Source: an uncultured Actinomycetes bacterium (lineage in GTDB: Bacteria > Actinomycetota > UBA4738 > CALAEC01). From it: DNA of 64,000 nt. Positions 193 to 32,177 of this stretch are shown piece after piece; position 1 is the stretch's first letter, and each line of letters starts with the position of its first letter. The DNA lies in contig CAZKFH010000001.1 in the NCBI GenBank assembly GCA_964551945.1, positions 81,274 to 145,273 of the forward strand. Direction: 5' to 3'. The position numbers were made by a program, and so were the translations under genes. The notes below the pieces were generated by a model. The model ran no database searches. It was not told the DNA's origin and was given only the letters and a program-made list of their open reading frames with translations.

Positions 193-795
193 CTACTTGA
201 AGTCGCCGCGTGCCTGCTCGGCGCGTGACTGGCCGATCGCGGACTTCACGTCCTTCTTCTCCTCCGGCGGAGGGAGCACGGCCTTGAGGCCGAGTGACTC
301 GATCCACAGCTCACGGGCCCAGCCCATCGTGTGGTACAGGTGTTCGTCCTCCTGATCGGAGACCTCGTCGTAGGCCTCCTTGAGGAACTTCTTGATGTCG
401 CCGGTGGTTTCCTCGGTCAGGGTGCCGATCAGCTCCCAGTTCTGGTGGTCCTTCGTCTCCGCGTCGACCACCGCCTCCGCGGCAACGAGCTGGGCCGCCG
501 ACGGGTCTCCCGCTGAGAGCGCCGACTGCATCGACTGGACCAGCGCGGCGGCCTTGTCGCGGACGATCAGGCGGCCGGGAGTCTCGACCTGGGGGTCGAG
601 GCCGATGCTGTCGAACACGTGCGTGACGATCTCGACGTGCTTCCGGGTCTCCTCGAGGTACTTGGTCCACTCCTTCTTCAGGTCCTCGTTGATCGCGCAC
701 TTGATGGCGTTTTCGTAGATCTGGACGCCGCCGAGCTCCGTCTCCAGGGCCTGGTAGAGAAGCTCATTCACCTGTTCCTGTTTTGCCTGTGCCAT
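193..795 (-). CDS. ferritin-like (diiron E…ExxH…E…ExxH) domain protein
   Basis: 200-aa ORF; spaced glutamates and ExxH pairs (EETRKH, EDEHLYH) typical of the ferritin-like four-helix-bundle superfamily. Confidence 0.55.
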   Translation of the reverse strand: MAQAKQEQVNELLYQALETELGGVQIYENAIKCAINEDLKKEWTKYLEETRKHVEIVTHVFDSIGLDPQVETPGRLIVRDKAAALVQSMQSALSAGDPSAAQLVAAEAVVDAETKDHQNWELIGTLTEETTGDIKKFLKEAYDEVSDQEDEHLYHTMGWARELWIESLGLKAVLPPPEEKKDVKSAIGQSRAEQARGDFK

Positions 796-864
796 GCGGG
801 CCTCCTTTGGGTCGGTGTCTCGCTGATATACCTTCCCCGGGTCGGCCGTAAACGCAAAAAGGGA

Positions 865-1584: not shown

Positions 1585-1686
1585 AACCTCAACTTCATGT
1601 CCATGACCGGACCCTAACCGTAGGGAGCGGGGACACCCTGCCCCCGGGCACCGCCAGGCCCGTCGTCAGCGTGAGACGATTCGCTT

Positions 1687-2925
1687 GTGAACGACGAGAG
1701 GCACGCGCGGCTCGTGCCCGTCTCAGAGGACGCTCGTGTCGCCCCGATCGAGCTCTTCTTCGACCTGGTCTTCGTCTTCTCGTTGACCCAGGTGACCGCC
1801 CTGATGGGCGACGACCTGACCGAGCGTGGCATCCTTCGCGGCCTACTCGTCCTCGCGCTGCTCTGGTGGGCGTGGGTGGGGTACGCCTGGCTGGCCAACG
1901 TCGTGCAAGCGGACGAGGGGCTGGGCCGGGCATCGATGCTCGCTGCAATGGCCGCGATGTTCGTGGTCGCCGTCACCGTGCCCGAGGCCTTCGAGGATCT
2001 GCCCGGTGGGCTCGACGGACCGGTCGTGATCGCGTTCGCGTACCTGGCAGTGCGACTGCTGCATCTCGCGATGTTCGTGCTGCTGTCTGGCGACGATCCC
2101 GGGCTCAGGCGTCAGGTCTGGCGGTTCTCGCCATCGGTCTTCGGCAGCACCGCGGTCCTGCTGGTCGCGTCACAGCTCGAGGGGACGGCGCAGACACTCG
2201 CCTGGCTGGCCGCCCTGATCGTGGACTACGTGGGCACGATCCTCGCCGGCGCATCGGGCTGGAGGCTCCGCTCCGCGTCACACTTCGCCGAGCGGCACGG
2301 GCTGATCCTCATCGTCGCCCTCGGCGAGTCGATCGTCGCGATTGGCGTCGGCGTGGCGCAGATACCGATCGCGTGGCCGATCATCGTGGGGTCGGTGCTG
2401 GGTCTCGCGCTCGCCGGGTGTCTGTGGTGGGCGTACTTCGACGTTGTGTCGATCGCCGCGGAGCGAGCGCTCCGCCGCGCGACGGGGGAAAAGGCCGCGC
2501 GCCTCGCCCGAGATGCGTACAGCTACCTGCACCTGCCGATGGTCGCCGGCATCGTGCTGATGGCTCTGGGGATGGAGCAGGTGCTCGAGTACGTGGGGGA
2601 CGAGAGCTTGCACGGCGTTTCGGAGCCTCTCCCGGCCCTCCCGCTGGGTGCGCTGTACGGGGGAGTCGTGTGTTTCCTTCTCGCGCACGTCGCGTTCAAG
2701 TACCGGACGTGGCACCGCCTGTCGGTGCGACGGCTGGTTGTGGCTGCGCTCATGGTCGCGCTGATACCCGTGGCCGCGGAGCTCCCCGCCCTCGCGGCCC
2801 TGGGCCTGCTGGTCGCCGTCATGGTCGCGATGATCGGGACCGAGATGGTTCGCTACGCCGAGGATCGTGAACGGATCCGGCACGAGATGGGTGAGGGACA
2901 CGAGGAGGTCGGCACCTCGCACTGA
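1687..2925 (+). CDS. ltrA: low temperature requirement protein A (LtrA) family membrane protein
   Basis: 412 aa, multi-TM; N-terminal 'ELFFDLVFVF' signature of the LtrA family. Confidence 0.75.
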   Translation: MNDERHARLVPVSEDARVAPIELFFDLVFVFSLTQVTALMGDDLTERGILRGLLVLALLWWAWVGYAWLANVVQADEGLGRASMLAAMAAMFVVAVTVPEAFEDLPGGLDGPVVIAFAYLAVRLLHLAMFVLLSGDDPGLRRQVWRFSPSVFGSTAVLLVASQLEGTAQTLAWLAALIVDYVGTILAGASGWRLRSASHFAERHGLILIVALGESIVAIGVGVAQIPIAWPIIVGSVLGLALAGCLWWAYFDVVSIAAERALRRATGEKAARLARDAYSYLHLPMVAGIVLMALGMEQVLEYVGDESLHGVSEPLPALPLGALYGGVVCFLLAHVAFKYRTWHRLSVRRLVVAALMVALIPVAAELPALAALGLLVAVMVAMIGTEMVRYAEDRERIRHEMGEGHEEVGTSH

Positions 2926-2935
2926 CGGCTCCCGG

Positions 2936-3334
2936 TCAGAAGTCCTGGAGCACGGACAGGATGTTGCCGGACGGGTCCTTGAACCAGGCGATGCTCGGTC
3001 CCATCTTGGCTTCCAGGCCGCGGGCGATTCCTTTCTCGTCTTGCTCGAACGGGAAGCCCTCGTACCTCTCGAAGGTCACGCCGCGCGCGGACAATCCGTC
3101 GACGGCCTCGTCGATGTCCTCCACGGGGAAGTTGAGGATCGTGTAGCTCGCGGGTGTTGGGTTCTCGGTCTGATAGACGAGCGTGTCCCGTTCGCCGGCG
3201 AGGTGCAGCGTCATCAGTCCCATCTCCTTGTCCAGGATCGAGGTCTTCACCCCGAGTGTCTCGCCGTAGAACTTCTGGGCCTTGTCCAGGTCGTCGACCC
3301 CGATACCGCTGTATGCCTTGCTGTTCTCGAGCAT
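2936..3334 (-). CDS. VOC family (glyoxalase/bleomycin resistance/dioxygenase) protein
   Basis: 132 aa with the characteristic beta-alpha-beta-beta-beta module pattern ('YSGIGVDDLDKAQKFY…'). Confidence 0.7.
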   Translation of the reverse strand: MLENSKAYSGIGVDDLDKAQKFYGETLGVKTSILDKEMGLMTLHLAGERDTLVYQTENPTPASYTILNFPVEDIDEAVDGLSARGVTFERYEGFPFEQDEKGIARGLEAKMGPSIAWFKDPSGNILSVLQDF

Positions 3335-20233: not shown

Positions 20234-22921
20234 GTGCGCCCGCCGCCCGTGAAAGCCCTGCTCGTCCTCACGCTTCTGGGATCGCTGGTGTCGGTCGTGC
20301 CCGCGGGCCCGGCCCTCAGCGCCGACCCCGCCGCTGACCTGGCGGGGAAGTGGGAGCGAGCCCATGAGCGCGTGGCTCCGTCTGAGCGGGGCCGTATGTC
20401 GATGGCCTACGACGAGGGGCACGACACACTCGTACTGTTCGGCGGGCTCAACAACACCGGCCAGCTCGGAGACACGTGGCTATTCGAGGGCAGCTGGAAG
20501 CAAGCGGAACCGGAGTCCTCGCCTTCACCGCGTCTCGGAACGGCCATGGCCTACGACAGGGTTCGGGAACAGGTGGTCATGTTCGGTGGCCACGCAGGGA
20601 CCGAGCGTCTCGCCGAGACGTGGGCCTGGAACGGGACCACCTGGAGTCGGCTAACACCTCTGAGCTCACCGAGCGCTAGGTCGTTCTCGACCATGGCGTA
20701 CGACGCGGCTCGGGACGAGATCGTGCTGTTCGGCGGGATGCCCGCCGGTGGTGGCAACCTCGCCGACACCTGGACGTGGGACGGCAGCACATGGACGAGG
20801 GAGACGCTTTCAGTATCTCCGCCGTACCGGGATTCCGCGTCGATGGTCTACGACCCGGCGCGGCAAGAGGTCCTCTTGTTCGGAGGGTACGGACAGGGAG
20901 GTGCGCTCTCGGATACCTGGACGTGGGACGGCTCCACGTGGGAACAGCAGTCGTCCGCCGCATCGCCTCCTCGGCGCAGCTCGGCTGGCCTTGCCCCCGA
21001 TCCTCGGAACGACACCGTTGTCCTGTTCGGTGGCATCGACAACGTGGGCTACCGAAACGACACCTGGACGTGGGATGGCGCGACGTGGACGCAGGCGACT
21101 CCACCCGCGAGTCCCCCCAGCCGCGCATCGATGGGCCTGGCCTGGCACGGAGATAAAGAGGAGGTCGTGCTCTTCGGGGGCAGCTCGGCGAACCTCGACC
21201 GCAACGACACCTGGACGTGGGACGGTTCGCGCTGGCTCAGCCGCGATCAGCTCGCGCCCGATGCTCGGCATAGCGCGGTCACGAGCTCGGGACCCGACGG
21301 CACCGCCGTGCTCTTCGGGGGGATGACCGACGCCGGCATGTCCGCCGAGACGTGGACGTGGGACGGCGCGTGGAAGCAGGAGGCTTCGGGGGGACCACCG
21401 GCGAGGATCAACGGGGCGATGGCCTACGACCCGCGGCACGACGAGGTCGTGCTCTTCGGCGGCATGGCGGCCGACGGCAGCGAGCTCGGTGACACCTGGG
21501 TGTGGGACGGCAAGGCGTGGACGCGCCGCGAGGCGACGCTCGCCCCGCCGCCGCGCCACAACCACGTCATGGCCTACGACGTCGTGACCCGCCGGATCCT
21601 CCTCTTCGGCGGGTCGAACTCGGATCTCGGCCTCGTGTTCTCCGACACGTGGACCTGGGGCGGCGGGGAGTGGAGGCCGCTGCGGCCCGGGACTTCCCCG
21701 CCGCCACTCAGCGCAGCCTCGATGGCGTACGACCCCGGCCACGAGAAGATCGTGCTGTTCGGCGGCTACGACCAGAATGTCCAGCGCACGAACGCGACGT
21801 GGACCTGGGACGGGTTCACCTGGTCGGAGGCGCAGCCCCCGGCGTCGCCCCCCGCGCGAGCAGCGGGGCACATGTCGTACGACCCGAACCTGGGTACGCC
21901 GGTCCTATTCGGCGGCAACGCCGGGCTCGGCGAGCATCTCGCCGACGCCTGGGCCTGGGACGGCCAGGCGTGGGTGGAGCTGACCCTTCCCGGTCCGGCG
22001 GAGCGATGGGGGGCGGCGTTCGCATACAGCCCCGCCGCGGGTGCCTCGGTGCTGTTCGGCGGGAATCGCAACTCCTACCTCGACGACACGTGGGTCTTCC
22101 GGAGCCTTCGGCGCATCGGCGCCGACCCCACGTTGATCATCGACAGCCGGACGATCGAGGGGCCGTTCTGGTACGTGCACGCGGTGTCCATCGCCGAGGA
22201 CGGCGTCAGGGTGGCGGTAGACATCGATCGCACCGTCGAGCAGGCGAGTGGGATCGGGTACGGCGTGTTCGTCGTGCGAGCGGACACGCTCCAGTCGAAG
22301 GGTTTCTCCCTCGCCACTGGTCACGCCACCGAAAGCGAGGTGTACGTCGACGACGATGCCCAAGCAGTCCACGAGCATGTCGAGGCGCCCGGCGTGGAGG
22401 GGCAGACGAGCAACTCGGAGACGAGCTTCCACCCGCTCGACCAGGGTGACTACTACATCGTCGTCGTCAACACGGCGCCGGGCTCGATCGAGTCAACTGT
22501 CCGCCTGCACGGCGACTCCAGGGTCCGTGTGGTCGCGACCTCCCAGGGGACCGCCGGCGGGTTCTGGAGGGAGACCGACTTCGAGGCGCCGCGGAACGTT
22601 CAGGCGCGGATCGGTGGCGGCGCTATCAACGCGCACGCCGGGGTGATCGAGGACGGGAGGATTGACCTCCACTTCGACCACCGGCTGTTCGGCATCTACC
22701 AGAGTGTCATCGCCAACCCGAACGACGTGAGCTACATCGGCCCTGACGGCACCGAGCGCACCGGGCAGACGACCTACGTGCTGTCGGCCCGCGACCCCGG
22801 TGACTACACCTTCAAGGTCAACGAGTGGCAAGCGGCGCGCGCCGGGCCAGGCCCCACGGGGTACATCGCCCTCCTAACCGCCGACGTCGTCCTGCCGAGC
22901 TTGAGCGGCGCGCCCGACTGA
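20234..22921 (+). CDS. secreted Kelch-repeat (galactose-oxidase-like) beta-propeller protein with ~300-aa uncharacterised C-terminal domain
   Basis: GTG start, signal peptide, ~12 tandem 'MAYD…VLFGG…DTWTWDG..W' Kelch motifs. Confidence 0.75.
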   Translation: MRPPPVKALLVLTLLGSLVSVVPAGPALSADPAADLAGKWERAHERVAPSERGRMSMAYDEGHDTLVLFGGLNNTGQLGDTWLFEGSWKQAEPESSPSPRLGTAMAYDRVREQVVMFGGHAGTERLAETWAWNGTTWSRLTPLSSPSARSFSTMAYDAARDEIVLFGGMPAGGGNLADTWTWDGSTWTRETLSVSPPYRDSASMVYDPARQEVLLFGGYGQGGALSDTWTWDGSTWEQQSSAASPPRRSSAGLAPDPRNDTVVLFGGIDNVGYRNDTWTWDGATWTQATPPASPPSRASMGLAWHGDKEEVVLFGGSSANLDRNDTWTWDGSRWLSRDQLAPDARHSAVTSSGPDGTAVLFGGMTDAGMSAETWTWDGAWKQEASGGPPARINGAMAYDPRHDEVVLFGGMAADGSELGDTWVWDGKAWTRREATLAPPPRHNHVMAYDVVTRRILLFGGSNSDLGLVFSDTWTWGGGEWRPLRPGTSPPPLSAASMAYDPGHEKIVLFGGYDQNVQRTNATWTWDGFTWSEAQPPASPPARAAGHMSYDPNLGTPVLFGGNAGLGEHLADAWAWDGQAWVELTLPGPAERWGAAFAYSPAAGASVLFGGNRNSYLDDTWVFRSLRRIGADPTLIIDSRTIEGPFWYVHAVSIAEDGVRVAVDIDRTVEQASGIGYGVFVVRADTLQSKGFSLATGHATESEVYVDDDAQAVHEHVEAPGVEGQTSNSETSFHPLDQGDYYIVVVNTAPGSIESTVRLHGDSRVRVVATSQGTAGGFWRETDFEAPRNVQARIGGGAINAHAGVIEDGRIDLHFDHRLFGIYQSVIANPNDVSYIGPDGTERTGQTTYVLSARDPGDYTFKVNEWQAARAGPGPTGYIALLTADVVLPSLSGAPD

Positions 22922-23062: not shown

Positions 23063-23398
23063 GTGGCGTACGACGAAGACCTCGCGGATCGCTTGCGTGA
23101 GCTTCTCGCCGACACACGCCGCCTAACCGAGCGGAAGATGTTCGGAGGACTGGCGTTCCTCATCGGGGGCCACATGGCCATCGGCGCGAGCGGCCAGGGC
23201 GGTGCGCTCGTCCGGGTTGACCCGGAGCAGTCCGACAAGATCGTCGCGACCACCAAGGCCCGCCCTATGGAGATGCGTGGCCGGCAGATGCAGGGATGGC
23301 TGCGAGTGGACTCCGATGACTTGCGCACGAAGCGCCAGCTCGAGAAGTGGGTCAAGCTCGGCTCGGACTACGCACAGTCACTGGCCCCGAAGCGCTAG
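23063..23398 (+). CDS. TfoX/Sxy N-terminal domain family protein
   Basis: 'MFGGLAFLIGGHMAIG' matches the TfoX_N pattern. Confidence 0.6.
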   Translation: MAYDEDLADRLRELLADTRRLTERKMFGGLAFLIGGHMAIGASGQGGALVRVDPEQSDKIVATTKARPMEMRGRQMQGWLRVDSDDLRTKRQLEKWVKLGSDYAQSLAPKR

Positions 23399-23405
23399 GC
23401 ACTCA

Positions 23406-23885
23406 ATGGACAGGTTGTGGGCGCCGTGGCGAGGGGAGTACGTCAAGCAAGCGTCCAAGGGCGAGGATCAGGGGTGCCTGTTCTGCGAGCTGCAGAAGCA
23501 GGATGACGAGGAGGCGCTGATCCTCGCGCGTAGCGAGCACTCGTTCGCCGTGCTGAACCGGTACCCGTACAACAGCGGCCACCTGATGGTCGCGCCGCTC
23601 CGGCACGTCGGCGAGCTCGAGGACGTGACGGACGACGAGAACCTCGACTTGCAGCGGATGCTCCAGCGCTGCGTCCGCGCGCTAAAGGAGGCGATGGAGC
23701 CGGACGGTTTCAACCTCGGGATGAACCTGGGCCGAGTGGCCGGGGCCGGGGTGCCGGACCACCTTCACTGGCACGTCGTTCCTCGCTGGAACGGCGACAC
23801 CAACTTCATGCCCAGCGTGGCTCAGACGAAGGTTCTGCCTGAGGGCCTTGATTCAGTGCTGGGGAAGCTCAAGGCAGCCCTCTAG
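23406..23885 (+). CDS. HIT (histidine triad) family nucleotide hydrolase/phosphorylase
   Basis: 'HLHWHVVPR' histidine triad; start re-assigned to ATG at 23406. Confidence 0.75.
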   Translation: MDRLWAPWRGEYVKQASKGEDQGCLFCELQKQDDEEALILARSEHSFAVLNRYPYNSGHLMVAPLRHVGELEDVTDDENLDLQRMLQRCVRALKEAMEPDGFNLGMNLGRVAGAGVPDHLHWHVVPRWNGDTNFMPSVAQTKVLPEGLDSVLGKLKAAL

Positions 23886-23914
23886 CTCTTGCCAATCAGC
23901 GCGAGATTGACAGA

Positions 23915-23934
23915 GATAGCATAAATATGCATAC
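23915..23934 (+). promoter_or_regulatory. AT-rich imperfect palindrome (atagcataaatatgcatact); candidate ARG box/ArgR operator and promoter (-35 TTGACA at 23906)
   Basis: A single AT-rich island in otherwise ~70% GC DNA, 13 nt upstream of argC. Resembles 'CATGAATAAAAATGCAAG'-type ARG boxes. Confidence 0.4.
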
Positions 23935-23946
23935 TGACGCATTCTC

Positions 23947-24969
23947 ATGGGTACCGCTGCTGTTGCCGTGCTGGGGGCCTCTGGATACACGGGGGCGGAG
24001 CTTCTACGTCTGCTCGCTACTCACCCTGACCTCGAAGTAGCCGCGATTGGAGCTTCCTCGGCTGCGGGGGAGCCCGTCACCTCCCGGTACCCGCACCTCG
24101 ATTTTTATGCGGATCGACTCTTCGAGGATCTCAAGCCCGACGACGTGGCCGGGCGGACCGAGGCTGCGCTTCTCGCGCTGCCGCACGGGGAGAGCGCGGT
24201 CATGGCTCCAGCGCTGTTAGAGGCCGGTCTTCGGGTCGTGGATCTCTCCGGAGACTTTCGCCTCCCCGCCGACGCGTACCCGGGCTGGTACGGGTACGAG
24301 CACCCATCCCCGGCCTGGCTCGAGAAGGCCGTGTACGGCCTGCCGGAGCTGTTCGCCGACGAGATCACCGACGCGGCGCTGGTGGCGAACCCCGGCTGCT
24401 ACCCGACGGCAGTTCTGCTGGGACTAGCGCCGTTGGCGAAGGCGGGCCTGATCGAGACCGACGGCATCGTGATCGACGCGAAGTCCGGCGTCTCGGGCGC
24501 CGGGCGCATGCCGACCGACTCGACGCACTTCGCCACAGCCGACGGCAGCGTCCGTCCGTACAAGGCCGGCGGCGTGCATCAGCACACGCCGGAGATCGAG
24601 CGGTACCTCGGCGCCTCAGTCACGTTCGTGCCGCACCTGGTCCCGTCGGTGCGCGGCGTGCTGACGACGAGCTACGCGCCGACCAGCTCGGACGCGGCGA
24701 CGCTGCTTGGGGCGCTGAACGAGGCGTACTCGGCGGCGCCGTTCGTCCGCGTGCTCCCGGAGGGGACGCTGCCGGACAGCAAGCGGGTCCAGGGCACGAA
24801 CGTGTGCGAGCTCGGCGTCGTGGTCGACGGCCGGACCGGGACCGCGATCGTCATCGGAGCGGTGGACAACCTGGTGAAGGGCGCGGCCGGGCAGGCGATC
24901 CAGAACCTGAACCTGATGCTCGGCCTCCCCGAGACGACCGGGCTCGAGGCGCAGGCGGTGTACCCGTGA
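23947..24969 (+). CDS. argC: N-acetyl-gamma-glutamyl-phosphate reductase
   Basis: 'VLGASGYTGAELLRLL…ANPGCYPT' are canonical ArgC motifs. Confidence 0.9.
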   Translation: MGTAAVAVLGASGYTGAELLRLLATHPDLEVAAIGASSAAGEPVTSRYPHLDFYADRLFEDLKPDDVAGRTEAALLALPHGESAVMAPALLEAGLRVVDLSGDFRLPADAYPGWYGYEHPSPAWLEKAVYGLPELFADEITDAALVANPGCYPTAVLLGLAPLAKAGLIETDGIVIDAKSGVSGAGRMPTDSTHFATADGSVRPYKAGGVHQHTPEIERYLGASVTFVPHLVPSVRGVLTTSYAPTSSDAATLLGALNEAYSAAPFVRVLPEGTLPDSKRVQGTNVCELGVVVDGRTGTAIVIGAVDNLVKGAAGQAIQNLNLMLGLPETTGLEAQAVYP

Positions 24970-24995
24970 GCGCGCCGCTTGTCACCCGCTCAAAA

Positions 24996-25017
24996 TGTGG
25001 CTACAATTGCAGCCACA
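24996..25017 (+). promoter_or_regulatory. 22-bp near-perfect palindrome tgtggctacaattgcagccaca overlapping a TTGTCA-N17-TACAAT promoter; putative antitoxin operator
   Basis: Arms tgtggct/agccaca are perfect. The TACAAT -10 sits in the palindrome centre and ends 11 nt before the antitoxin ATG, so the transcript would be leaderless. Confidence 0.5.
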
Positions 25018-25275
25018 ATGTCCGTCGGCATCCGAGACCTCAAGAACCGAGCCACCGAGATCCTGCGCGGGCTGGAGGAGCGCGGGAAGGCCGTGCTGGT
25101 CACGCGGCACGGGAAGCCGGCCGCCCTCATCCTGCCGATGGGATCACCGGAGGCGGAGGACTACATACTCGCCCATGCGCCAGAGATCGTTACCTCCCTC
25201 AGAGAGGCGGAGGCGGATCTTCGAGCGGGACGCACCAAGACGCTGAAGTCGTATCGGCGTCGCCGCGGGCTATAG
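25018..25275 (+). CDS. type II toxin-antitoxin system Phd/YefM family antitoxin
   Basis: 'MSVGIRDLKNRATEIL…VLVTRHGKPAALILP' is the canonical YefM N-terminus. Confidence 0.75.
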   Translation: MSVGIRDLKNRATEILRGLEERGKAVLVTRHGKPAALILPMGSPEAEDYILAHAPEIVTSLREAEADLRAGRTKTLKSYRRRRGL

Positions 25276-25281
25276 ACGCCC

Positions 25282-25560
25282 GTGGCCGAAGTTCGGCTCG
25301 CCCGCAGGGCCGAGAAGGAGCTGGACGGCCTATCCAAGCGCGTGGCTGTTCGAGTCCTCGACGCCCTGGAAAGGCTCGGTGCGGACCCGGGTTCGCCGGA
25401 GCTCGATGTGAAAGTGCTGGCCGGGCGGAGGCCGTGGCGACGACTGCGCGTCGGCGATCACCGAGTCGTGTTCAAGCTCTCGGACCGGGGGCGCGTGGTC
25501 CTAGTTGCGCGCGTTATCGACCGCCGGGAGCTGGAGAGAGTCGTCCGAACGCTCCCCTGA
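25282..25560 (+). CDS. type II toxin-antitoxin system RelE/ParE family toxin
   Basis: 92 aa, GTG start 6 nt after the antitoxin stop; RelE/ParE-like C-terminus 'RVGDHRVVFKL…VLVARVIDRRE'. Confidence 0.7.
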   Translation: MAEVRLARRAEKELDGLSKRVAVRVLDALERLGADPGSPELDVKVLAGRRPWRRLRVGDHRVVFKLSDRGRVVLVARVIDRRELERVVRTLP

Positions 25561-25573
25561 AGGGAGCGAACCG

Positions 25574-26743
25574 GTGAGCGTCACCACGCCGAATGGGTTT
25601 CGGGCCTCCGGCGTGGTCGCGGGCCTGAAGGAGAGCGGCCGGCCGGACCTCGGGCTGCTGGTGGCCGACGGGGGAACGTCCGCCGCCGGGCTCTTCACCA
25701 CGAACGCGTTCCCTGCCGCGCCGGTGACGGTCTCGCAGCGTCACCTGCTGAGCGGGCGAGCTAGCGCCGTCGTGGTCAACAGCGGTCAAGCGAACGCCGC
25801 GACCGGCGACGTGGGCATCGAAGACGCCGCGAGCACGTGCGCCGCCGTCGCCGAAGCTGTGGGGGCTGAGGCCGAGGACGTGCTGTTGTGCTCTACCGGC
25901 GTGATCGGGCCTCGGGTGAAGCTGGCCGAGCTGATCGCGGCGCTTCCCGGTGTGGTGGGGGAGCTAACCGCCGACGGCGGCTCGAGGTTCGCGGAGGCGA
26001 TCCTCACGACCGACACGGTCTCTAAGGAAACCGTGGTCCGGGGCGAGGGGTTCACGGTCGGCGGGTGCGCGAAAGGCGTGGGGATGATCGCGCCGCGGCT
26101 GGCCACGATGCTCGCTTTCCTAACCACAGACGCAGAGGTCGAGCCGGCGATCCTGGATGCAGCCTTACGGCGCGCGGTTGCTCCGGTATTCAACGGACTC
26201 ACGGTGGACAACTGCCCGAGCACGAACGACACCGTGCTCCTCCTCGCGAGCGGCGCCTCGGGTTTCAGGGCGGACCCGGGGACGCCGCAGCTCGCAGCGC
26301 TCGAGACGGCGCTCGCAGAGGCCGCGCGAGACCTCGTGCATCAGATCCAGCTCGACGCCGAGGGGGCCACCAAGGCGATCGCGGTTCAGGTGTCGGGTGG
26401 ACTCGGCGACGACGCGGCGACGGTGGCGCGGGCGGTGGCGACCTCGATGCTCGTCAAGACCGCGGTGTTCGGCGGTGACCCGAACCCCGGACGGATCCTC
26501 CAGGCCGTTGGCGCGAGCGGGGTGCCGATCATCCCCGAGCGGGTCTCGATCGACCTCGCCGGCCACCGGGTGGTCACGGGCGGCGTGATGGTTCCGTTCG
26601 ATCAGGGCGCGTGCGCCGAGGCGCTGAAGGAGCGCGATGTGGCCATCGAGGTGGACCTCGGGCTCGGCGACGAGCAGGCCACCGCGTTCGGCTGCGACCT
26701 CGGCTACGAGTACATCCGGATCAACGCGGAGTACACGACATGA
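25574..26743 (+). CDS. argJ: bifunctional glutamate N-acetyltransferase/amino-acid acetyltransferase (ornithine acetyltransferase)
   Basis: 'ATMLAFLTTDA' autocleavage site plus overall ArgJ pattern; GTG start after a GAAGGGAG RBS. Confidence 0.85.
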   Translation: MSVTTPNGFRASGVVAGLKESGRPDLGLLVADGGTSAAGLFTTNAFPAAPVTVSQRHLLSGRASAVVVNSGQANAATGDVGIEDAASTCAAVAEAVGAEAEDVLLCSTGVIGPRVKLAELIAALPGVVGELTADGGSRFAEAILTTDTVSKETVVRGEGFTVGGCAKGVGMIAPRLATMLAFLTTDAEVEPAILDAALRRAVAPVFNGLTVDNCPSTNDTVLLLASGASGFRADPGTPQLAALETALAEAARDLVHQIQLDAEGATKAIAVQVSGGLGDDAATVARAVATSMLVKTAVFGGDPNPGRILQAVGASGVPIIPERVSIDLAGHRVVTGGVMVPFDQGACAEALKERDVAIEVDLGLGDEQATAFGCDLGYEYIRINAEYTT

Positions 26744-27012
26744 GTAGCTCGGAGCTCCTCTTCAACGTGGTGTTGATCGGTCAAGGCATCGGCCTGCTTT
26801 TCCTCGCCAGGTTGATCGGGTCCTGGTGGCTCCTTCTCGTCCCAGTCGTCGGATGGCCGCTGTTCCTTGTCGGCGTCGCAAAGGACTGGTGGGAGGTTGA
26901 GTTCTTCGATACGGAGGCCGGTTACACCCTTGCATTCCCGTTTGCAGTGCTTGGAGCGGTCGGGGTTGTCGTCGGCCAGGTCCTCCATCGTCCTCGGAAG
27001 GAAGCCAGGTGA
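26740..27012 (+). CDS. small membrane protein (2 TM) embedded in the arg operon
   Basis: ATGA overlap with the argJ stop and GTGA overlap with the argB start; hydrophobic 90-aa ORF. Confidence 0.45.
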   Translation: MSSSELLFNVVLIGQGIGLLFLARLIGSWWLLLVPVVGWPLFLVGVAKDWWEVEFFDTEAGYTLAFPFAVLGAVGVVVGQVLHRPRKEAR

Positions 27013-27914
27013 CAAGCGAGCCTGTGGTGCGCGAGCGCGAGGTGGCGCAGCGGACGCTGTCGAAGGCGCGGGTGCTCCTCGAGGCGCTCCCGTACATGAA
27101 GGAGCACTCGGGGAAGACCGTGGTGGTCAAGCTCGGCGGGGCCGCGATGGCCGACCCGGGCCCGGCCTCGAGCTTCGCGGAGGACGTGGCGCTGCTCCGC
27201 CTGGCCGGCGTGCATGTCGTGGTGGTGCACGGGGGCGGGCCGCAGATCAGCGAGCTCTCCGAGCGGCTCGGCATCGAGACCCGATTCGAGCGCGGGCTCC
27301 GCGTGACCGACGCGGAGACCCTCGACGTGGCGCGGATGGTGCTCATCGGCAAGATCAACACCGAGATCGTGGCCGCGATCAACCGGCAAGGCGTCCCGGC
27401 GGCCGGCGTCTCGGGCGACGACGGCGCGCTGTTCGTGGCGCGGCCGAAGGAGCGGACCGAGGAAGGCGTGGACCTCGGCCTGGTGGGCGACATCGTCGAG
27501 GTGCGCCCCGCACTGCTCCAGGACCTGATGCAGCGGTTCGTCCCGGTCGTGGCTTCCACCGCGACCGACGGGCGCGGGCAGGGCTTAAATGTGAACGCAG
27601 ACGAGGCCGCGGCCGCGCTCGCCGTCGCCCTCGGCGCTGAGAAGCTGATCTTCATGACCGACGTCCCCGGCCTGTACGAGGAGCTCGGCGGCGTCGAGCA
27701 GCTCCTGTCCGAGGTCTCGCTGGCGGAGTGCGAGCGGCTGCTCGCGGACGGCGTGGTCGAGGGCGGCATGGTGCCGAAGGTCGAGGCCGTGCTCCAGGCA
27801 ATGAAGGGCGGCGTGCACAAGGCGCACATCCTGGACGGCCGCGTGCCGCACGCCCTGATCCTCGAGATGTTCACTCCCGAGGGCCTCGGAACGATGATCA
27901 CGGAGGATTCGTGA
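27009..27914 (+). CDS. argB: acetylglutamate kinase
   Basis: 'VVVKLGGAAM…VVVHGGGPQI' amino-acid-kinase motifs. Confidence 0.9.
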   Translation: MTSEPVVREREVAQRTLSKARVLLEALPYMKEHSGKTVVVKLGGAAMADPGPASSFAEDVALLRLAGVHVVVVHGGGPQISELSERLGIETRFERGLRVTDAETLDVARMVLIGKINTEIVAAINRQGVPAAGVSGDDGALFVARPKERTEEGVDLGLVGDIVEVRPALLQDLMQRFVPVVASTATDGRGQGLNVNADEAAAALAVALGAEKLIFMTDVPGLYEELGGVEQLLSEVSLAECERLLADGVVEGGMVPKVEAVLQAMKGGVHKAHILDGRVPHALILEMFTPEGLGTMITEDS

Positions 27915-29059
27915 GCACGCTGGCCGCGCGCGAGGCCGCGGCGATCATGCCGACCTACACGCGCTACCCGGTCACGTTCGTGCGCGGGGAGGGGATGCGG
28001 TTGTGGGACGCGGAAGGGACGGAATACCTGGACTTCGCGGCCGGGATCGCGGTTGCGTCGATCGGGCACTCGCATCCGAAGTGGGTCGAGGCGGTCTGCT
28101 CACAGGCCCGCGAGCTGGCGCACGTGAGCAACCTGTTCTACACGGAGCCGCAGGTCTCGCTGGCGGAGCGGTTGGCGTCAGTGACTGGGTTGTCACAGGC
28201 GTTCTTCGCCAACTCCGGCGCCGAGGCGAACGAGGCCGCGGTCAAGCTCGCTCGGCGCGCGACCGGCAGGTCGAAGGTCGTGGCCGCGATCGGCAGCTTC
28301 CACGGGCGGACTTTCGCGACACTCGCGGCGACCGGACAGAAGGAGAAGCACGAAGCGTTCCAGCCACTGCCGGACTGGTTCACGCACGTGCCGTACGGCG
28401 ACGTGAGCGCGCTGCGCGCGGCGGTGGACAACGAGACGAGCGCGGTGCTGCTCGAGCCGGTGCTGGGGGAGGGCGGCGTGGTGCCGGCGCCCGATGGCTA
28501 CCTCGAGGCGGCCCGCAGGGTTTGTGACACGGCGGGCGCGCTCTTGGTGCTCGACGAAGTGCAGACTGGTGTCGGTCGGTGCGGCGCTTGGCTCGCCTCG
28601 CAGCTCGCGGAGGTCAGGCCCGACATCGTCACGCTGGCGAAGGCGCTGGGCGGCGGGTTGCCGATCGGCGCGTGTCTCGCTCGCGAGGGGATCGCGTTCG
28701 CGGCGGGGGAGCACGCCTCGACGTTCGGCGGCGGACCGATCGTGTGCGCGGCAGCGCTCGCGGTGCTCGACGTGATCGAGGAAGAGGGCCTGCTGGAGAA
28801 CTCGCAGCAGCGTGGCGAGCAGTTGGTGAAGGGTCTCGGGGAGCTCTCCGTGGAGCCGCGTGGCCTCGGGCTGCTGGTCGGCGCCAAGGTTCCGGGCGAG
28901 AACGCCGACGGGGTCGTGCGCGCCGCGCTGAAGGAACAGCTGGTTCTCACGGTCGCGGGCAAGGACGTGGTCCGGTTCACCCCGCCGCTCATGGTTTCGG
29001 CGGACGAGGTCGACGAGGCGGTCGCACGTTTCTCGCGGGCGCTGGAGCACGCCGCATGA
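27911..29059 (+). CDS. argD: acetylornithine aminotransferase
   Basis: Class III PLP aminotransferase motifs ('LDEVQTGVGRCG', 'TLAKALGGGLPIGA'). GTG start overlaps the argB stop. Confidence 0.85.
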   Translation: MSTLAAREAAAIMPTYTRYPVTFVRGEGMRLWDAEGTEYLDFAAGIAVASIGHSHPKWVEAVCSQARELAHVSNLFYTEPQVSLAERLASVTGLSQAFFANSGAEANEAAVKLARRATGRSKVVAAIGSFHGRTFATLAATGQKEKHEAFQPLPDWFTHVPYGDVSALRAAVDNETSAVLLEPVLGEGGVVPAPDGYLEAARRVCDTAGALLVLDEVQTGVGRCGAWLASQLAEVRPDIVTLAKALGGGLPIGACLAREGIAFAAGEHASTFGGGPIVCAAALAVLDVIEEEGLLENSQQRGEQLVKGLGELSVEPRGLGLLVGAKVPGENADGVVRAALKEQLVLTVAGKDVVRFTPPLMVSADEVDEAVARFSRALEHAA

Positions 29060-29517
29060 AGCGCAGGCGGCAGAACGCGATCCTCGACCTGGTCCGGAAG
29101 GAATCGCTCGGCTCGCAGGCGGCGATCCTCGAGCGGCTGCGCGAGCAGGGCTTCGAGGTCACGCAGCCGACAGTGTCGCGTGACCTGGAGGAGCTCGGGC
29201 TGGTTCGTGCGCGGGACGAGGAGGGGCACCTCCGATACGTTCCTCCCGGCGCGGCGACCAACGGGCACGGGGTCGAGCGCCTGCACCGCGTGCTGGCGGA
29301 GTTTGTCATGGGGCTCGAGGCCTCGCGGAACATCGTCGTGGTGCGGACTCCCCCGGGCTCCGCGAACACGGTTGCGCAGGTGATCGACCAGGTCGGGCTG
29401 GAGGACGTGATCGGTACGGTTGCCGGCGACGACACGATCCTGGTGGTGACGCGCGAGGGCGTCCGCGCGACGACCGTCGTGAAGCGCCTGCAGGACCTGA
29501 TCGAGGGCGCGGCATGA
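29056..29517 (+). CDS. argR: arginine repressor
   Basis: N-terminal wHTH 'QAAILERLREQGFEVTQPTVSRDLEEL' and C-terminal 'GTVAGDDTILVV' oligomerisation/arginine-binding motif. Confidence 0.85.
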   Translation: MKRRRQNAILDLVRKESLGSQAAILERLREQGFEVTQPTVSRDLEELGLVRARDEEGHLRYVPPGAATNGHGVERLHRVLAEFVMGLEASRNIVVVRTPPGSANTVAQVIDQVGLEDVIGTVAGDDTILVVTREGVRATTVVKRLQDLIEGAA

Positions 29518-32177
29518 CCGACCGCGTGGTGCTCGCGTACTCAGGTGGCCTGGACACCTCGGTCGCCGCGCGGACGCTCCGCGAGGAGCGGGGCCTCGAC
29601 GTCGTGGCGGCCTTCGTCGATCTCGGCCAGCCGTTCGACCGCGTGGAGGTGGAGGAGCGCGCAGCCGCGGCGGAGGTTGAGCTTCACGTCGTCGATGCGC
29701 GTGAGGTCTTCGCGTCTCAGTTCTGTTTGCCCGCGCTGCACGCCAACGCGCTGTACGAGGGCAAGTACCCCTTGGTCTCCGCGCTGGCCCGCCCATTGAT
29801 CGCCGCCGAGGTGGTCCGCATCGCCCGCGAGACCGGCGCGAAGTTCGTCGCGCACGGCTGCACGGGTAAGGGGAACGACCAGGTCCGGTTCGAGACGTCG
29901 TTCGCGGCGCTCGGGCCCGATCTCGGCGTGATCGCGCCGGTTCGTGAGGAGTCCCTGTCACGCGAGGAGTCGCTGGAGCGCGCAGCCCGGTGGGGGATCC
30001 CGATCCAGACGGTGGCCAAGAAGTACTCGGTGGACGAGAACCTGTGGGGCCGGACGGTCGAGTGCAGCGAGCTCGAGGATCCGTGGATCGAGCCGCCCGC
30101 CGACGCGTTCGAGCTCACCGTCGATCCGCGCCACGCGCCGGACGAGCCTGCGGAGATCGTGATCGGGTTCGAGGGCGGCGCGCCGGTGTCCCTCGACGGC
30201 GCGGGGTTGTCGCCCGTCGATCTGATCGCACGGCTCACCGAGGTCGCCGGCGCTCACGGGTACGGGCGCGTGGACATGGTCGAGAACCGCCTGGTGGGCA
30301 TCAAGTCGCGCGAGCTGTACGAGGTGCCCGGCGCGCTCGCGCTGATCGCCGCGCACCGCGAGCTTGAAGACCTGACGCTCGAGCGTGACCTGGCGCACGA
30401 GAAGGCCGGGCTTGAGCGCCGCTGGGCCGAGCTCTGCTACTACGGGCAGTGGTACGGACCGCTGCACGCGGGGCTGCGCGCGTTCATGGCCGAGACGCAG
30501 GCCGATGTCACCGGCGAAGTGCGGGTTCGATTCCACAAGGGCACGGCGACCGTGATCGGCCGGCGCAGCCCCAAGTCCCTCTACGACTTCTCGCTCGCGA
30601 CGTACGAGCGCGGCGCGGACCGGTTCGACCAGCGTCAGGCGGCCGGGTTCATCTCGCTGTGGTCGCTCCCGATCAAGACGTGGGCCGCGCGCGGAGCGAA
30701 CGTGCAGGGCGTGCCCGCTGCACCTGCTGCACCCCCACGCGCGGCCCAACCTGCTCCGACGCAGACCGAGTCGGCCCCGGTTGCGCCGGCGCCTTCGGGA
30801 AGTGTTCGTCCCACCTGGGCCGGTCGGTTCGAGTCGGCCCCCGCCGAGGATGCGATGGCGTTCACGAAGTCCCTCGGGTTCGACCGGCGGCTGATCCTGC
30901 AGGACCTCCTGGTCACGCGGTTGCATGTGGCCGCACTCGGACGGGCGAAGCTGCTCGAGGCAGAGGAGCGGAAGACCCTGGATGGCGAGCTCCAAAACCT
31001 GGCGGCGGAGGCGCGAGCGGGGGAGTTCCCGTTCGACGACGCCGACGAGGACGTGCACTCCTCCGTCGAGCGCGTCCTGACCGAGCGGCTGGGTGACCTC
31101 GGCGCGAAGGTGCACGCGGGTCGGAGCCGCAACGACCTGGTGGTCACCGATCTCCGTCTGTGGATCACCGAGGCCGCGGAGCGACTGACGGCGGCGTGCG
31201 AGAAGCTGGCCATCGCGCTCGCGAACCGGGCCGAGCAGAACGCCGAGACGATCGTGCCCGGGTACACGCACCTGCAACGAGCACAGCCGATCACGCTCGG
31301 TCACCACCTGATGGCGCATGCTTCCCCGCTGGCGCGCGACGCCGACAGGTTCCGGCTTGCCGCCGCCTCCGCGGGAACCTCGGCTCTCGGTGCCGGAGCG
31401 CTCGCCACATCCACGCTCGGGCTCGGCGCGACCGCGACCGCGGAGGTCCTCGGCTTCGACGTCTTCGACAACTCGATCGACGCCGTGAGCGATCGTGACT
31501 TCGCGCTGGACTTCCTGGCGGCCTGCGTATCGACCGCGGTGCACGTCTCCCGGCTGGGCGAGGACTTGGTGCTGTGGTGCTCGCAGGAGTTCGGGTTCGC
31601 TCGGCCCCACGATGCGTACGCGACCGGGTCGAGCATGATGCCGCAGAAGCGGAACCCGGACGTCGCGGAGCTGGCACGCGGCAAGGCCGGCCGTGTCCTG
31701 GGCGACTACGTGCAGCTCGCGACCGTGCTCAAGGGCCTGCCGCTCGCATACGCGCGCGACCTCCAGGAGGACAAGGAGGCGGTGTTCGACGCGCACGACG
31801 CGCTGCTCCCCGCACTCGAGGCGCTGAGCGGCATGGTCGAGTCGCTCACGTTCGACAAGGAGCGCATGCGCCAGGCCGCGAGCGACCCGTCATTGCTTGC
31901 CACGGACCTCACCGAGCACCTGGTCCGCAAGGGCGTCCCGTTCCGCGAGGCACACGAAGCGATCGGCGGTCTCGTCGCGAAGCTTGAAGCTGAAGGACGA
32001 ACCCTCGGCGACGTCAAGCCAGACGAGTGGTCGGGGCTCGATGGGCGTCTCGACGAGGAGACGGGCGTCCTGCTCGATCCTGAGATCTCGATCTCTCATC
32101 GCGCCGGGCCCGGTGGTCCGTCACCGAACTCGGTCCGCGACCAGGTCGCGGTGCTGCGCTCGAAGCTCGGCCGCTGA
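29514..32177 (+). CDS. argG/argH: argininosuccinate synthase fused in-frame to argininosuccinate lyase (ArgG-ArgH) via a Pro/Ala-rich linker
   Basis: N-terminal 'AYSGGLDTS' ArgG P-loop through '…SLWSLPIKTW'. A ~40-aa PAAPAAPPRAAQPAPTQTESAPVAPAPS linker (nt ~30687-30812). Then ArgH 'WAGRFE…' to 'GSSMMPQKRNPD'. No stop codon between the two. Confidence 0.7.
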   Translation: MTDRVVLAYSGGLDTSVAARTLREERGLDVVAAFVDLGQPFDRVEVEERAAAAEVELHVVDAREVFASQFCLPALHANALYEGKYPLVSALARPLIAAEVVRIARETGAKFVAHGCTGKGNDQVRFETSFAALGPDLGVIAPVREESLSREESLERAARWGIPIQTVAKKYSVDENLWGRTVECSELEDPWIEPPADAFELTVDPRHAPDEPAEIVIGFEGGAPVSLDGAGLSPVDLIARLTEVAGAHGYGRVDMVENRLVGIKSRELYEVPGALALIAAHRELEDLTLERDLAHEKAGLERRWAELCYYGQWYGPLHAGLRAFMAETQADVTGEVRVRFHKGTATVIGRRSPKSLYDFSLATYERGADRFDQRQAAGFISLWSLPIKTWAARGANVQGVPAAPAAPPRAAQPAPTQTESAPVAPAPSGSVRPTWAGRFESAPAEDAMAFTKSLGFDRRLILQDLLVTRLHVAALGRAKLLEAEERKTLDGELQNLAAEARAGEFPFDDADEDVHSSVERVLTERLGDLGAKVHAGRSRNDLVVTDLRLWITEAAERLTAACEKLAIALANRAEQNAETIVPGYTHLQRAQPITLGHHLMAHASPLARDADRFRLAAASAGTSALGAGALATSTLGLGATATAEVLGFDVFDNSIDAVSDRDFALDFLAACVSTAVHVSRLGEDLVLWCSQEFGFARPHDAYATGSSMMPQKRNPDVAELARGKAGRVLGDYVQLATVLKGLPLAYARDLQEDKEAVFDAHDALLPALEALSGMVESLTFDKERMRQAASDPSLLATDLTEHLVRKGVPFREAHEAIGGLVAKLEAEGRTLGDVKPDEWSGLDGRLDEETGVLLDPEISISHRAGPGGPSPNSVRDQVAVLRSKLGR

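What the first reader, a model, noticed from the sequence alone, without database searches (positions are those of the whole stretch)
29514..32177. argG and argH read as one 887-aa ORF joined by a Pro/Ala-rich linker (bifunctional argininosuccinate synthase/lyase?)
There is no stop codon between the end of the ArgG homology (…SLWSLPIKTW) and the start of the ArgH homology (WAGRFE…). The two are bridged by ~40 aa of low-complexity PAAPAAPPRAAQPAPTQTESAPVAPAPSGS, typical of flexible interdomain linkers. The two enzymes catalyse consecutive steps (citrulline to argininosuccinate to arginine), so a fusion would allow substrate channelling. They are separate polypeptides in the canonical argCJBDRGH operons this locus otherwise mirrors.
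Basis: seen in the sequence. Interest (0 to 1): 0.6.

Follow-up and report, generated by a model that had tools for sequence, protein, structure and literature searches.

The report
Conserved fused argG–argH arginine gene
The last two enzymes of arginine synthesis are truly encoded here as one 887-residue protein joined by a floppy Pro/Ala-rich tether. The fusion is fixed in a whole clade of uncultured soil Actinomycetota but appears never to have been studied.

Summary
Window 29514..32177 (+) is one 887-aa ORF (95.5 kDa) made of three parts:
- full-length ArgG, residues 2-393
- a 40-aa Pro/Ala-rich spacer
- full-length ArgH, residues 434-885

A single open frame proves little here, because 59% of random 120-nt stretches in this GC-rich window are open. 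Comparative data settle it.

- About 70 full-length homologues (59-100% identity) from independent NCBI, JGI, ENA and Logan assemblies carry the same fusion.
- Their linkers share almost no sequence, 24% pairwise identity against 73% (ArgG) and 64% (ArgH).
- Linkers take 30 distinct lengths (37-103 aa). All are in frame and all are A/P/G/S/E-rich.
- Catalytic motifs of both enzymes are invariant. dN/dS is 0.08 for each domain and about 0.5 for the linker.
- AlphaFold2 folds both bodies confidently and leaves the linker disordered.
- No conserved internal start or Shine-Dalgarno precedes ArgH, so ArgH must be made as part of the fusion.
- The fused clade is monophyletic in both domain trees. 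It collapses to one 50%-identity cluster among 1.84 billion representatives.
- All 80 reference-genome loci examined keep separate genes. A second lineage fused the genes independently.

Substrate channelling is plausible but untested. I rate it a genuine, uncharacterised architecture of two ordinary enzymes, of moderate interest.

The parts
29514..32177 (+). Fused argG-argH ORF, 887 aa plus stop, 95.5 kDa, pI 5.1
   Evidence: ORF listing; Pfam and NCBIfam domain hits; mass; about 70 fused homologues
29514..30692 (+). ArgG (argininosuccinate synthase) module, residues 1-393, including the C-terminal arm ...GFISLWSLPIKTWAAR
   Evidence: NF001770 at 513 bits against a cutoff of 334, full model length. 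Best solved match is M. tuberculosis ArgG 4U7J, E 8e-125. Motifs Y9-T15, H114-E127 and S172/D174-N176 are invariant in 66 sequences. dN/dS 0.079.
30693..30812 (+). Disordered Pro/Ala-rich interdomain linker, residues 394-433
   Evidence: Family linkers contain A 21.6% and P 19.4%, with hydrophobic residues at 10.8% against 30% in the domains. There are 30 distinct lengths (37-103 aa between invariant W390 and W435), and pairwise identity is 24%. AF2 pLDDT is 33-45 with no secondary structure. dN/dS is about 0.5. GC3 is 0.59 against about 0.9 in the domains.
30813..32174 (+). ArgH (argininosuccinate lyase) module, residues 434-887
   Evidence: TIGR00838 at 503 bits against a cutoff of 279.5, full model length. 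Best solved match is M. tuberculosis ArgH 6IEM, E 3e-107. W435, R537-D541, T585-H586 and T704-N714 are invariant. dN/dS 0.085.
29514..29517 (+). ATGA overlap between the argR stop and the argGH start, implying translational coupling
   Evidence: The sequence reads GCGGCATGACC. The same 4-nt overlap occurs in L082 and L087-L091.
29056..29517 (+). argR (arginine repressor), immediately upstream in the operon
   Evidence: Pfam PF01316 and PF02863
23947..29059 (+). Upstream operon genes: argC 23947-24969, argJ about 25574-26743, argB 27009-27914, argD 27911-29059. A sigma-70-like promoter lies at 23907-23935.
   Evidence: Pfam hits; gene junctions; promoter scan; the same gene order in relatives

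Best explanation
This is a genuine, evolutionarily fixed gene fusion. It is the last cistron of an argC-J-B-D-R operon and is translated from the ATG at 29514, coupled to argR by an ATGA overlap. The product is one roughly 95-kDa polypeptide that carries both argininosuccinate synthase activity (citrulline + aspartate + ATP to argininosuccinate) and argininosuccinate lyase activity (argininosuccinate to arginine + fumarate).

The two enzyme bodies are ordinary and fold independently. They are tied by an intrinsically disordered, Ala/Pro/Gly/Ser/Glu-rich tether whose sequence is free to drift. Its frame, its composition and a minimum length of about 37 residues are kept.

Inferred: the tether is long enough for each half to assemble into the homotetramer typical of its family. 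This gives an obligatory 1:1 ArgG:ArgH stoichiometry and holds the lyase active sites within a few nanometres of where argininosuccinate is released. ArgH has no conserved start codon of its own, so it can only be made through the fusion.

The likely origin is loss of the argG stop in an ancestor with tightly packed or overlapping argG/argH, as seen in the nearest unfused relatives. The spacer then grew by in-frame insertions and duplications.
For: Shown:
- Both modules are full length and score above the equivalog cutoffs.
- About 70 full-length fused homologues at 59-100% identity come from NCBI, JGI, ENA and Logan assemblies, including Mb-scale contigs.
- All 11 loci examined at DNA level have argG and argH in the same frame with no stop. 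This includes L081, which the annotator had split.
- Linker: 30 distinct lengths, all multiples of three at DNA level by construction of the open frame; 24% identity against 73% (ArgG) and 64% (ArgH); composition conserved.
- Catalytic motifs of both enzymes are invariant across 66 sequences.
- dN/dS is 0.079 (ArgG), 0.085 (ArgH) and about 0.50 (linker).
- AF2 gives both bodies pLDDT of about 85-97 and the linker 33-45 with no secondary structure.
- No conserved in-frame start or SD precedes ArgH, and L090 has no ATG/GTG/TTG in its linker at all.
- The fused family is monophyletic in both ArgG and ArgH NJ trees.
- It forms a single 50%-identity cluster among 1.84e9 representatives.
- The operon context is conserved.
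- The nearest unfused relatives have argG stop and argH start overlapping or a few tens of nt apart.
Against: - There is no protein-level evidence: no proteomics and no assay. All carriers found are uncultured MAGs or metagenome contigs.
- Tetramer assembly of both halves from fused chains is inferred from homologous stand-alone structures and was not modelled.
- In the window and its 90% relative L087, an in-frame GTG (30702) with GGAG 9 nt upstream could give some separate ArgH carrying the linker as an N-terminal tail.
- I could not check whether these genomes also carry stand-alone argG or argH copies elsewhere. None is present in the 64-kb window.
- Selective advantage of the fusion is not demonstrated. 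Frame maintenance is equally expected under a neutral ratchet.
Confidence: 0.88

Rival explanations
1. Assembly or sequencing artefact, or a recent pseudo-fusion. A lost stop codon or compensating frameshifts would merge two normally separate genes in this one assembly.
For: An open 120-nt stretch is expected by chance 59% of the time in this GC-rich DNA, and all three frames are open at the junction. Many distant 'fusions' in the database really are such artefacts. P0076, P0079, P0080, P0084, P0087, P0090, P0092, P0103 and P0104 have Arg-rich out-of-frame junctions or retain the native 'VSTNEGS' ArgH start.
Against: About 70 independently assembled relatives down to 59% identity share the fusion with clean domain boundaries. 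Linkers of 30 different lengths all preserve the frame. Both halves have dN/dS of about 0.08. The fused clade is monophyletic.
Confidence: 0.02
2. The fused ORF exists, but the cell ends up with two separate enzymes. Either the exposed linker is cut proteolytically after translation, like the fungal ARG5,6 ArgB-ArgC polyprotein (own knowledge), or ArgH is additionally initiated at an internal start within the linker.
For: The linker is disordered and exposed, so it is a plausible protease substrate. The window and L087 have an in-frame GTG with GGAG 9 nt upstream at the beginning of the linker. NCBI's pipeline called an ArgH-only product from an internal GTG in L081.
Against: No internal start or SD is conserved across the family. 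L090 has no start codon in the linker, and L082, L088 and L089 have GTGs without any SD-like sequence. No conserved cleavage motif exists, since linker identity is 24%. Pro-rich linkers are generally rather protease-resistant (own knowledge).
Confidence: 0.1
3. The fusion is real and translated but selectively neutral. It would be a constructive-neutral ratchet with no channelling or kinetic benefit, and the linker is merely tolerated.
For: Linker sequence is unconstrained, with dN/dS about 0.5 and 24% identity. There is no conserved interface or motif. The fusion is rare, forming one 50% cluster in 1.84e9 representatives. Nearly all bacteria manage with separate genes. Once ArgH lost its own start, reversion needs several mutations.
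Against: The fusion has persisted through deep divergence, with ArgH down to 56% identity. At least one further independent origin exists (P0098-P0101, P0088). Linker composition is conserved, and within this family the linker never falls below about 37 aa, suggesting selection on spacer properties. None of this proves a kinetic benefit.
Confidence: 0.35

Closest known systems
Stand-alone ArgG and ArgH of Actinobacteria, e.g. Mycobacterium tuberculosis ArgG (PDB 4U7J) and ArgH (PDB 6IEM)
   Same: They are the best solved-structure matches for each half, with E 8e-125 and 3e-107. They show full-length collinearity, the same catalytic motifs, and the same argCJBD-R-G-H operon logic.
   Different: They are two polypeptides with a stop after argG, as in all 80 reference-genome loci. 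Here there is one polypeptide with a 40-aa disordered tether. The operon here also lacks argF.
ArgH(A): argininosuccinate lyase fused to a short N-acetylglutamate synthase domain in marine gammaproteobacteria (PMC1382215)
   Same: It is a natural fusion involving ArgH inside a tightly packed arg operon. The authors proposed that it arose from overlapping or adjacent cistrons.
   Different: The partner is a C-terminal GNAT domain catalysing the first pathway step, not the preceding enzyme. The window protein ends with ArgH (model position 454 of 455) and scores below the ArgH(A) model cutoff (NF008964, 368 against 657).
Independent ArgG-ArgH fusions in a second lineage (P0098-P0101, locus L092 from GCA_040961615.1; also P0088)
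   Same: They have the same domain order, intact domains and a P/A/S/G-rich linker of 17-84 aa. They are in frame at DNA level and sit next to argR.
   Different: They share only 46-48% (ArgG) and 41-45% (ArgH) identity with the window protein. That is less than the window shares with unfused relatives (58%). They cluster apart in both trees, which indicates convergent fusion. The genomic context also differs: amino-acid permeases are nearby and there is no argCJBD.
Fungal ARG5,6 (ArgB-ArgC) polyprotein (own knowledge)
   Same: Consecutive arginine-pathway enzymes are encoded as one ORF.
   Different: It involves different enzymes and is eukaryotic. The precursor is cleaved into two enzymes in mitochondria. 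No cleavage signal is evident here.
Mammalian ASS-ASL(-arginase) metabolite channelling (Cheung et al. 1989, as cited in PMC7860981)
   Same: It is the same two reactions. Tracer evidence shows that argininosuccinate is handed from ASS to ASL without mixing with the bulk pool.
   Different: That association is non-covalent, between separate proteins. Here the association is covalent, and no kinetic data exist.

Membership tests
Argininosuccinate synthase (ArgG, EC 6.3.4.5; NCBIfam NF001770 / TIGR00032) | Full-length match above the curated equivalog cutoff | tested here: met
   NF001770 at 513.1 bits (cutoff 334), residues 2-393 on model positions 4-397 of 401. TIGR00032 at 468.7 bits (cutoff 268.2).
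Argininosuccinate synthase (ArgG, EC 6.3.4.5; NCBIfam NF001770 / TIGR00032) | N-type ATP-pyrophosphatase loop (A-Y-S-G-G-L-D-T-S) and the G-K-G-N-D-Q-x-R-F-E and S-x-D-E-N substrate motifs (motif roles from own knowledge) | tested here: met
   Y9 S10 G11 G12 L13 D14 T15, H114-E127, and S172 D174 E175 N176 are invariant in 66 fused sequences.
Argininosuccinate synthase (ArgG, EC 6.3.4.5; NCBIfam NF001770 / TIGR00032) | Catalytic activity and homotetramer formation | not testable with these tools
   Supported only by inference from homology to 4U7J and 1J1Z.
Argininosuccinate lyase (ArgH, EC 4.3.2.1; TIGR00838) | Full-length match above the curated equivalog cutoff, including the ASL_C2 C-terminal domain | tested here: met
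   TIGR00838 at 503.3 bits (cutoff 279.5), residues 434-885 on model positions 1-454 of 455. PF00206 and PF14698 both hit.
Argininosuccinate lyase (ArgH, EC 4.3.2.1; TIGR00838) | Three conserved fumarase/aspartase-superfamily regions with the catalytic His and Ser loop: S-R-N-D, T-H-L-Q, G-S-S-x-M-P-x-K-x-N (roles from own knowledge) | tested here: met
   R537 S538 R539 N540 D541, T585 H586 Q588, and T704 G705 S706 S707 M709 P710 K712 R713 N714 are invariant.
Natural bifunctional fusion enzyme (single polypeptide) | One uninterrupted ORF conserved among relatives rather than confined to one assembly | tested here: met
   About 70 proteins. 11 of 11 DNA loci are in frame with no stop.
Natural bifunctional fusion enzyme (single polypeptide) | No independent translation start for the downstream module | tested here: met
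   No conserved start or SD is found in the linkers, and L090 has none at all. A clade-restricted GTG with GGAG occurs in the window and L087 only.
Natural bifunctional fusion enzyme (single polypeptide) | A 95-kDa product present in cells, carrying both activities | not testable with these tools
   Needs proteomics or enzymology.
ArgH(A) bifunctional lyase/acetyltransferase (NF008964) | C-terminal GNAT (short NAGS) domain after ArgH | tested here: not met
   NF008964 scores 368 bits against a cutoff of 657, and only model positions 4-451 of 624 match. The protein ends 2 residues after the ArgH model.
Substrate-channelling enzyme complex | Structural tunnel, electrostatic path or a fixed interface between active sites, or kinetic evidence of channelling | not testable with these tools
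   AF2 gives no confident interdomain contact, and pTM is 0.57 with a disordered linker. No kinetic data exist.

The most novel reading that the evidence does not exclude
ArgG and ArgH are each D2 homotetramers in all solved homologues. The fused chains are linked by long flexible tethers, so they need not close into discrete 4+4 particles. They could instead cross-link different tetramers into open, multivalent networks, that is enzyme clusters or condensate-like assemblies. Channelling of argininosuccinate by clustering would then become kinetically effective, and arginine synthesis would be spatially organised in these bacteria. The variable linker length of 37-103 aa would tune the mesh. 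This would be a natural, genetically encoded bacterial 'metabolon by polymerisation'.
Probability: 0.08. Interest if true: 0.7.

Novelty: new variant of a known kind. Interest (0 to 1): 0.4.

Why it matters
(1) It is a natural, long-maintained covalent coupling of two consecutive homotetrameric enzymes through a disordered tether. That makes it a clean test system for whether simple tethering gives metabolite channelling, a debated point in enzyme-cascade design. At least one convergent origin offers a replicate.

(2) It has a practical cost today. Annotation pipelines name the same architecture either 'synthase' or 'lyase', or call only half of it (L081). Name-based metabolic reconstructions of these soil Actinomycetota MAGs will therefore score one arginine step as missing and predict false auxotrophy.

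(3) The fusion is a rare genomic change that can serve as a synapomorphy marker for this uncultured clade.

Tried and rejected
- The exact-sequence look-up of the window protein found no contig on record, so the source sample of the window stays unknown beyond 'NCBI, 160-kb contig'.
It returned only unfused argG/argH neighbours and missed the fused clade. It is useful as a negative control but not for taxonomy.
- The metagenome scan with the junction segment gave only 4 loci, of which 2 span the junction.
- Rfam found nothing in the window, so no rRNA is available for taxonomy.
- TRF found no tandem repeat in the window's linker DNA. Protein-level 6-mer repeats occur in 14 of 70 linkers, so duplication-driven growth is seen in relatives but not here.
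- Literature searches found no paper describing a natural ArgG-ArgH fusion. 'argGH' and 'argG-argH' in papers mean the operon or plasmid constructs. The 2007 MMBR arginine review could not be opened.
- I considered the conserved ATG at ArgH residue 14 with GAGGA upstream as an internal start. I rejected it for three reasons. The 'SD' is just the Glu-Asp codons. The start would delete the invariant W-x-G-R-F N-terminus. The Met is absent in L082 and L088-L090.
- I rejected most 'distant fusions' in the protein database as frameshift chimeras.
Full report
**1. Observation**

The ORF list shows a single ORF at 29514..32177 (+), 887 aa with an ATG start. The raw sequence has no in-frame stop between the ArgG and ArgH homology.

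NCBIfam equivalog models match a complete ArgG at residues 2-393 (NF001770, 513 bits, cutoff 334, model positions 4-397 of 401). They match a complete ArgH at residues 434-885 (TIGR00838, 503 bits, cutoff 279.5, model positions 1-454 of 455). Pfam finds Arginosuc_synth, Arginosuc_syn_C, Lyase_1 and ASL_C2 in that order.

The 40 residues between them (30693..30812) read GANVQGVPAAPAAPPRAAQPAPTQTESAPVAPAPSGSVRP. The predicted mass is 95.5 kDa.

**2. Is it more than chance?**

For this sequence alone, no. The window is 67% GC, and 59% of all 120-nt stretches are open in a given frame. All three frames are open across the junction. A single lost stop codon would look identical. The protein database also holds many such artefacts. 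P0076, P0079, P0080, P0084, P0087, P0090, P0092, P0103 and P0104 are 'fusions' whose junctions are Arg-rich out-of-frame translations, or which still contain the native ArgH start 'VSTNEGS'. The case rests on comparative evidence.

**3. Comparative evidence**

- A search of 5.8 billion proteins returned about 70 full-length homologues with all four Pfam domains. They are 59-100% identical and 875-973 aa long. They come from NCBI, JGI, ENA and Logan assemblies, including contigs of 0.96, 1.59 and 3.06 Mb.
- In every one, blastp places an intact ArgG (68-100% identity) and an intact ArgH (56-100%) separated by a spacer.
- In a 66-sequence alignment, the spacer between invariant W390 and W435 takes 30 distinct lengths (37-103 aa, median 54). 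Its mean pairwise identity is only 24%, against 73% for ArgG and 64% for ArgH.
- Linker composition is nonetheless constant: A 21.6%, P 19.4%, G 9.2%, S 8.6%, E 8.2%. Hydrophobic and aromatic residues make up 10.8%, against 30% in the domains.
- Many independent indels have therefore occurred, and all of them preserved the reading frame into ArgH.
- At DNA level, the window and the nine related family loci examined (L081-L084, L087-L091) have argG and argH in the same frame with no stop.
- The one apparent exception is P0072, an ArgH-only protein with 82% identity. Its locus L081 contains one continuous argG-linker-argH frame. The annotator simply started ArgH at an internal GTG and left the ArgG part uncalled.

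**4. Both enzymes are under selection**

- The ATP-pyrophosphatase loop (Y9-T15), the H114-E127 block and S172/D174-N176 of ArgG are invariant in all 66 sequences.
- So are W435, R537-D541, T585-H586 and T704-N714 (the GSSxMPxKxN signature loop) of ArgH. The motif roles come from my own knowledge of the two families.
- Nei-Gojobori dN/dS between the window and its 90% relative L087 is 0.079 for ArgG, 0.085 for ArgH and about 0.50 for the linker. The linker covers only 40 codons, so that last figure is imprecise.
- The best solved-structure matches are stand-alone M. tuberculosis ArgG (4U7J, E 8e-125) and ArgH (6IEM, E 3e-107). No solved chain in either list is long enough to hold both enzymes.

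**5. Structure**

I ran AlphaFold2 with the 66-sequence alignment. It gives mean pLDDT 83, with both bodies mostly at 85-97. Residues about 396-433 have no secondary structure and pLDDT 33-45.

The ArgG C-terminal arm (359-395, helix 373-395) is also low-confidence. That is expected for a segment that packs against neighbouring subunits in tetramers (own knowledge). pTM is 0.57, so no fixed interdomain orientation is predicted.

**6. Can ArgH be made separately?**

I listed every in-frame ATG/GTG/TTG around each linker, together with SD-like motifs.

- Nothing is conserved. L090 has no start codon in its linker. L082, L088 and L089 have GTGs without an SD.
- Only the window and L087 share a GTG (30702) with GGAG 9 nt upstream.
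- A frequent ATG 14 codons into ArgH, preceded by 'GAGGA', is simply the codons for A-E-D-A-M. Using it would delete the invariant WxGRF N-terminus, and it is absent from four loci.

ArgH expression in this clade therefore depends on translation through the linker.

**7. Distribution and origin**

- In NJ trees of each domain, built with unfused representatives, the fused family is monophyletic with no unfused sequence inside it. Its sister sequences are unfused.
- An exhaustive HMMER scan of 1.84 billion 50%-identity representatives found only one full-length fused representative (P0059) and two fragments. All other top hits are stand-alone ArgG at no more than 58% identity or stand-alone ArgH at no more than 55%.
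- In 80 reference-genome loci, spanning Actinomycetota, Bacillota, Chloroflexota, Proteobacteria and others, argG always ends with a stop.
- The nearest unfused relatives are L065, L067, L077 and several Acidimicrobiales. Their argG ends '...WAAKQ..GS*', and argH starts by overlapping the stop (GTGA in L067, ATGA in L072 and L078) or within a few tens of nt, in a different frame.
- My inference from this is that a small indel removed the stop in such an arrangement. The spacer then grew, and internal 6-mer repeats in 14 of 70 linkers point to in-frame duplications.
- A second group has intact domains and P/A/S/G-rich linkers of 17-84 aa: P0098-P0101, with locus L092 from GCA_040961615.1, plus P0088. 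It shares only 41-48% identity with the window protein and clusters apart. I read this as convergent fusion.
- All named carriers are 'Actinomycetota bacterium' MAGs. I found no cultured carrier.

**8. Genomic context**

The gene closes an operon: argC (23947-24969), argJ (about 25574-26743), argB (27009-27914), argD (27911-29059), argR (29056-29517) and argGH. The argB/argD, argD/argR and argR/argGH junctions are 4-nt overlaps. A sigma-70-like promoter sits at 23907-23935.

The same order, with 4-nt overlaps, is found in L082, L087, L088, L089, L090 and L091. No argF is present in the window or in these operons. No second argG or argH copy lies in the window.

**9. Mechanism**

Shown:
- One ORF.
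- Two intact modules under purifying selection.
- A disordered, compositionally constrained tether.
- No independent ArgH start.

Inferred:
- A single bifunctional polypeptide is made, and each half tetramerises as its homologues do.
- For a 40-residue random coil I expect an end-to-end distance of roughly 4 nm and a contour length of roughly 14 nm (own estimate). That is enough to let both tetramers form from the same chains.
- The certain consequences are equimolar synthesis and co-localisation.
- Channelling of argininosuccinate is plausible, and it has a non-covalent precedent in hepatocytes (Cheung et al. 1989, cited in PMC7860981). Proximity through a flexible tether does not by itself guarantee it, and nothing here tests it.
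- A neutral-ratchet origin remains a serious alternative for why the fusion persists.

**10. Comparison with known systems**

- The modules are ordinary members of the ArgG and ArgH families, and the membership tests were met.
- The protein is not an ArgH(A)-type fusion. NF008964 scores below its cutoff and there is no GNAT domain (PMC1382215).
- Four literature searches found no description of a natural ArgG-ArgH fusion. JGI's pipeline does label some members 'argininosuccinate lyase/argininosuccinate synthase'. The architecture is therefore catalogued but uncharacterised.

**11. Verdict**

This is a real and conserved architecture, and a new combination of two well-known enzymes. It is of moderate interest as a natural tethering experiment, as a clade marker and as an annotation pitfall. 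It is not a new biochemical principle.

Noticed in passing
window 24979-25560 (+): A type II toxin-antitoxin cassette sits between argC and argJ. It consists of a Phd/YefM antitoxin (24979/25018-25275, PF02604, 31.6 bits) and a ParE/RelE toxin (25282-25560, PF05016, 39.2 bits). It has its own sigma-70-like promoter at 24979-25007. It is absent from relatives L087 and L088, where argC and argJ overlap by 4 nt.
   Followed up: partly
window 26740-27012 (+): A 90-aa very hydrophobic small ORF (MSSSELLFNVVLIGQGIGLLFLARLIGSWWLLLVPVVGWPLFLVG...) lies between argJ and argB, with 4-nt overlaps at both ends (ATGA, GTGA). The region has lower GC (0.60) and is absent from L087, where argJ and argB overlap directly. 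It looks like a putative small membrane protein inserted in the arg operon.
   Followed up: partly
P0128 (598 aa) and P0126 (602 aa): Other arginine-enzyme fusions turned up among the unfused relatives. P0128 is ArgG followed by a linker and a GNAT-like acetyltransferase domain. P0126 is ArgH followed by a GNAT domain (ArgH(A)-type), and it falls in the sister group of the fused family's ArgH in the NJ tree. I do not know of a described ArgG-GNAT fusion.
   Followed up: no
L081 (GCA_050693095.1, JBOGVW010000141.1) 458-3133: The public annotation calls only a 503-aa ArgH from an internal GTG, although the DNA is one continuous argG-linker-argH frame. Across the family, the same architecture is named either 'synthase' or 'lyase'. 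This risks false 'missing step' calls in MAG metabolic reconstructions.
   Followed up: yes
window 23947-32177 and loci L082, L087-L091: No ornithine carbamoyltransferase gene (argF) is present in this arg operon or in those of the fused-clade relatives, unlike the argCJBDFRGH operons of Mycobacterium and Corynebacterium (the latter from own knowledge). No OTCase STRTR motif occurs anywhere in the 64-kb window.
   Followed up: partly
L082 6265-7508: In the 3.06-Mb long contig carrying P0066, argJ is called as two overlapping pieces (198 and 233 aa). This is probably a frameshift error in that assembly, yet the argGH fusion frame in the same locus is intact.
   Followed up: no
window 30693-30812 and linkers of L081-L091: Third-position GC of the linker is clearly lower than in the flanking domains: 0.59 in the window and 0.65-0.92 in relatives, against 0.86-0.97 in the domains. 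This suggests relaxed codon selection or a younger, insertion-derived origin of the spacer DNA.
   Followed up: partly
window 20234-22921 (+): A large 895-aa protein with multiple Kelch / beta-propeller repeats is encoded upstream of the arg operon. A HIT-family protein lies at 23202-23885.
   Followed up: no
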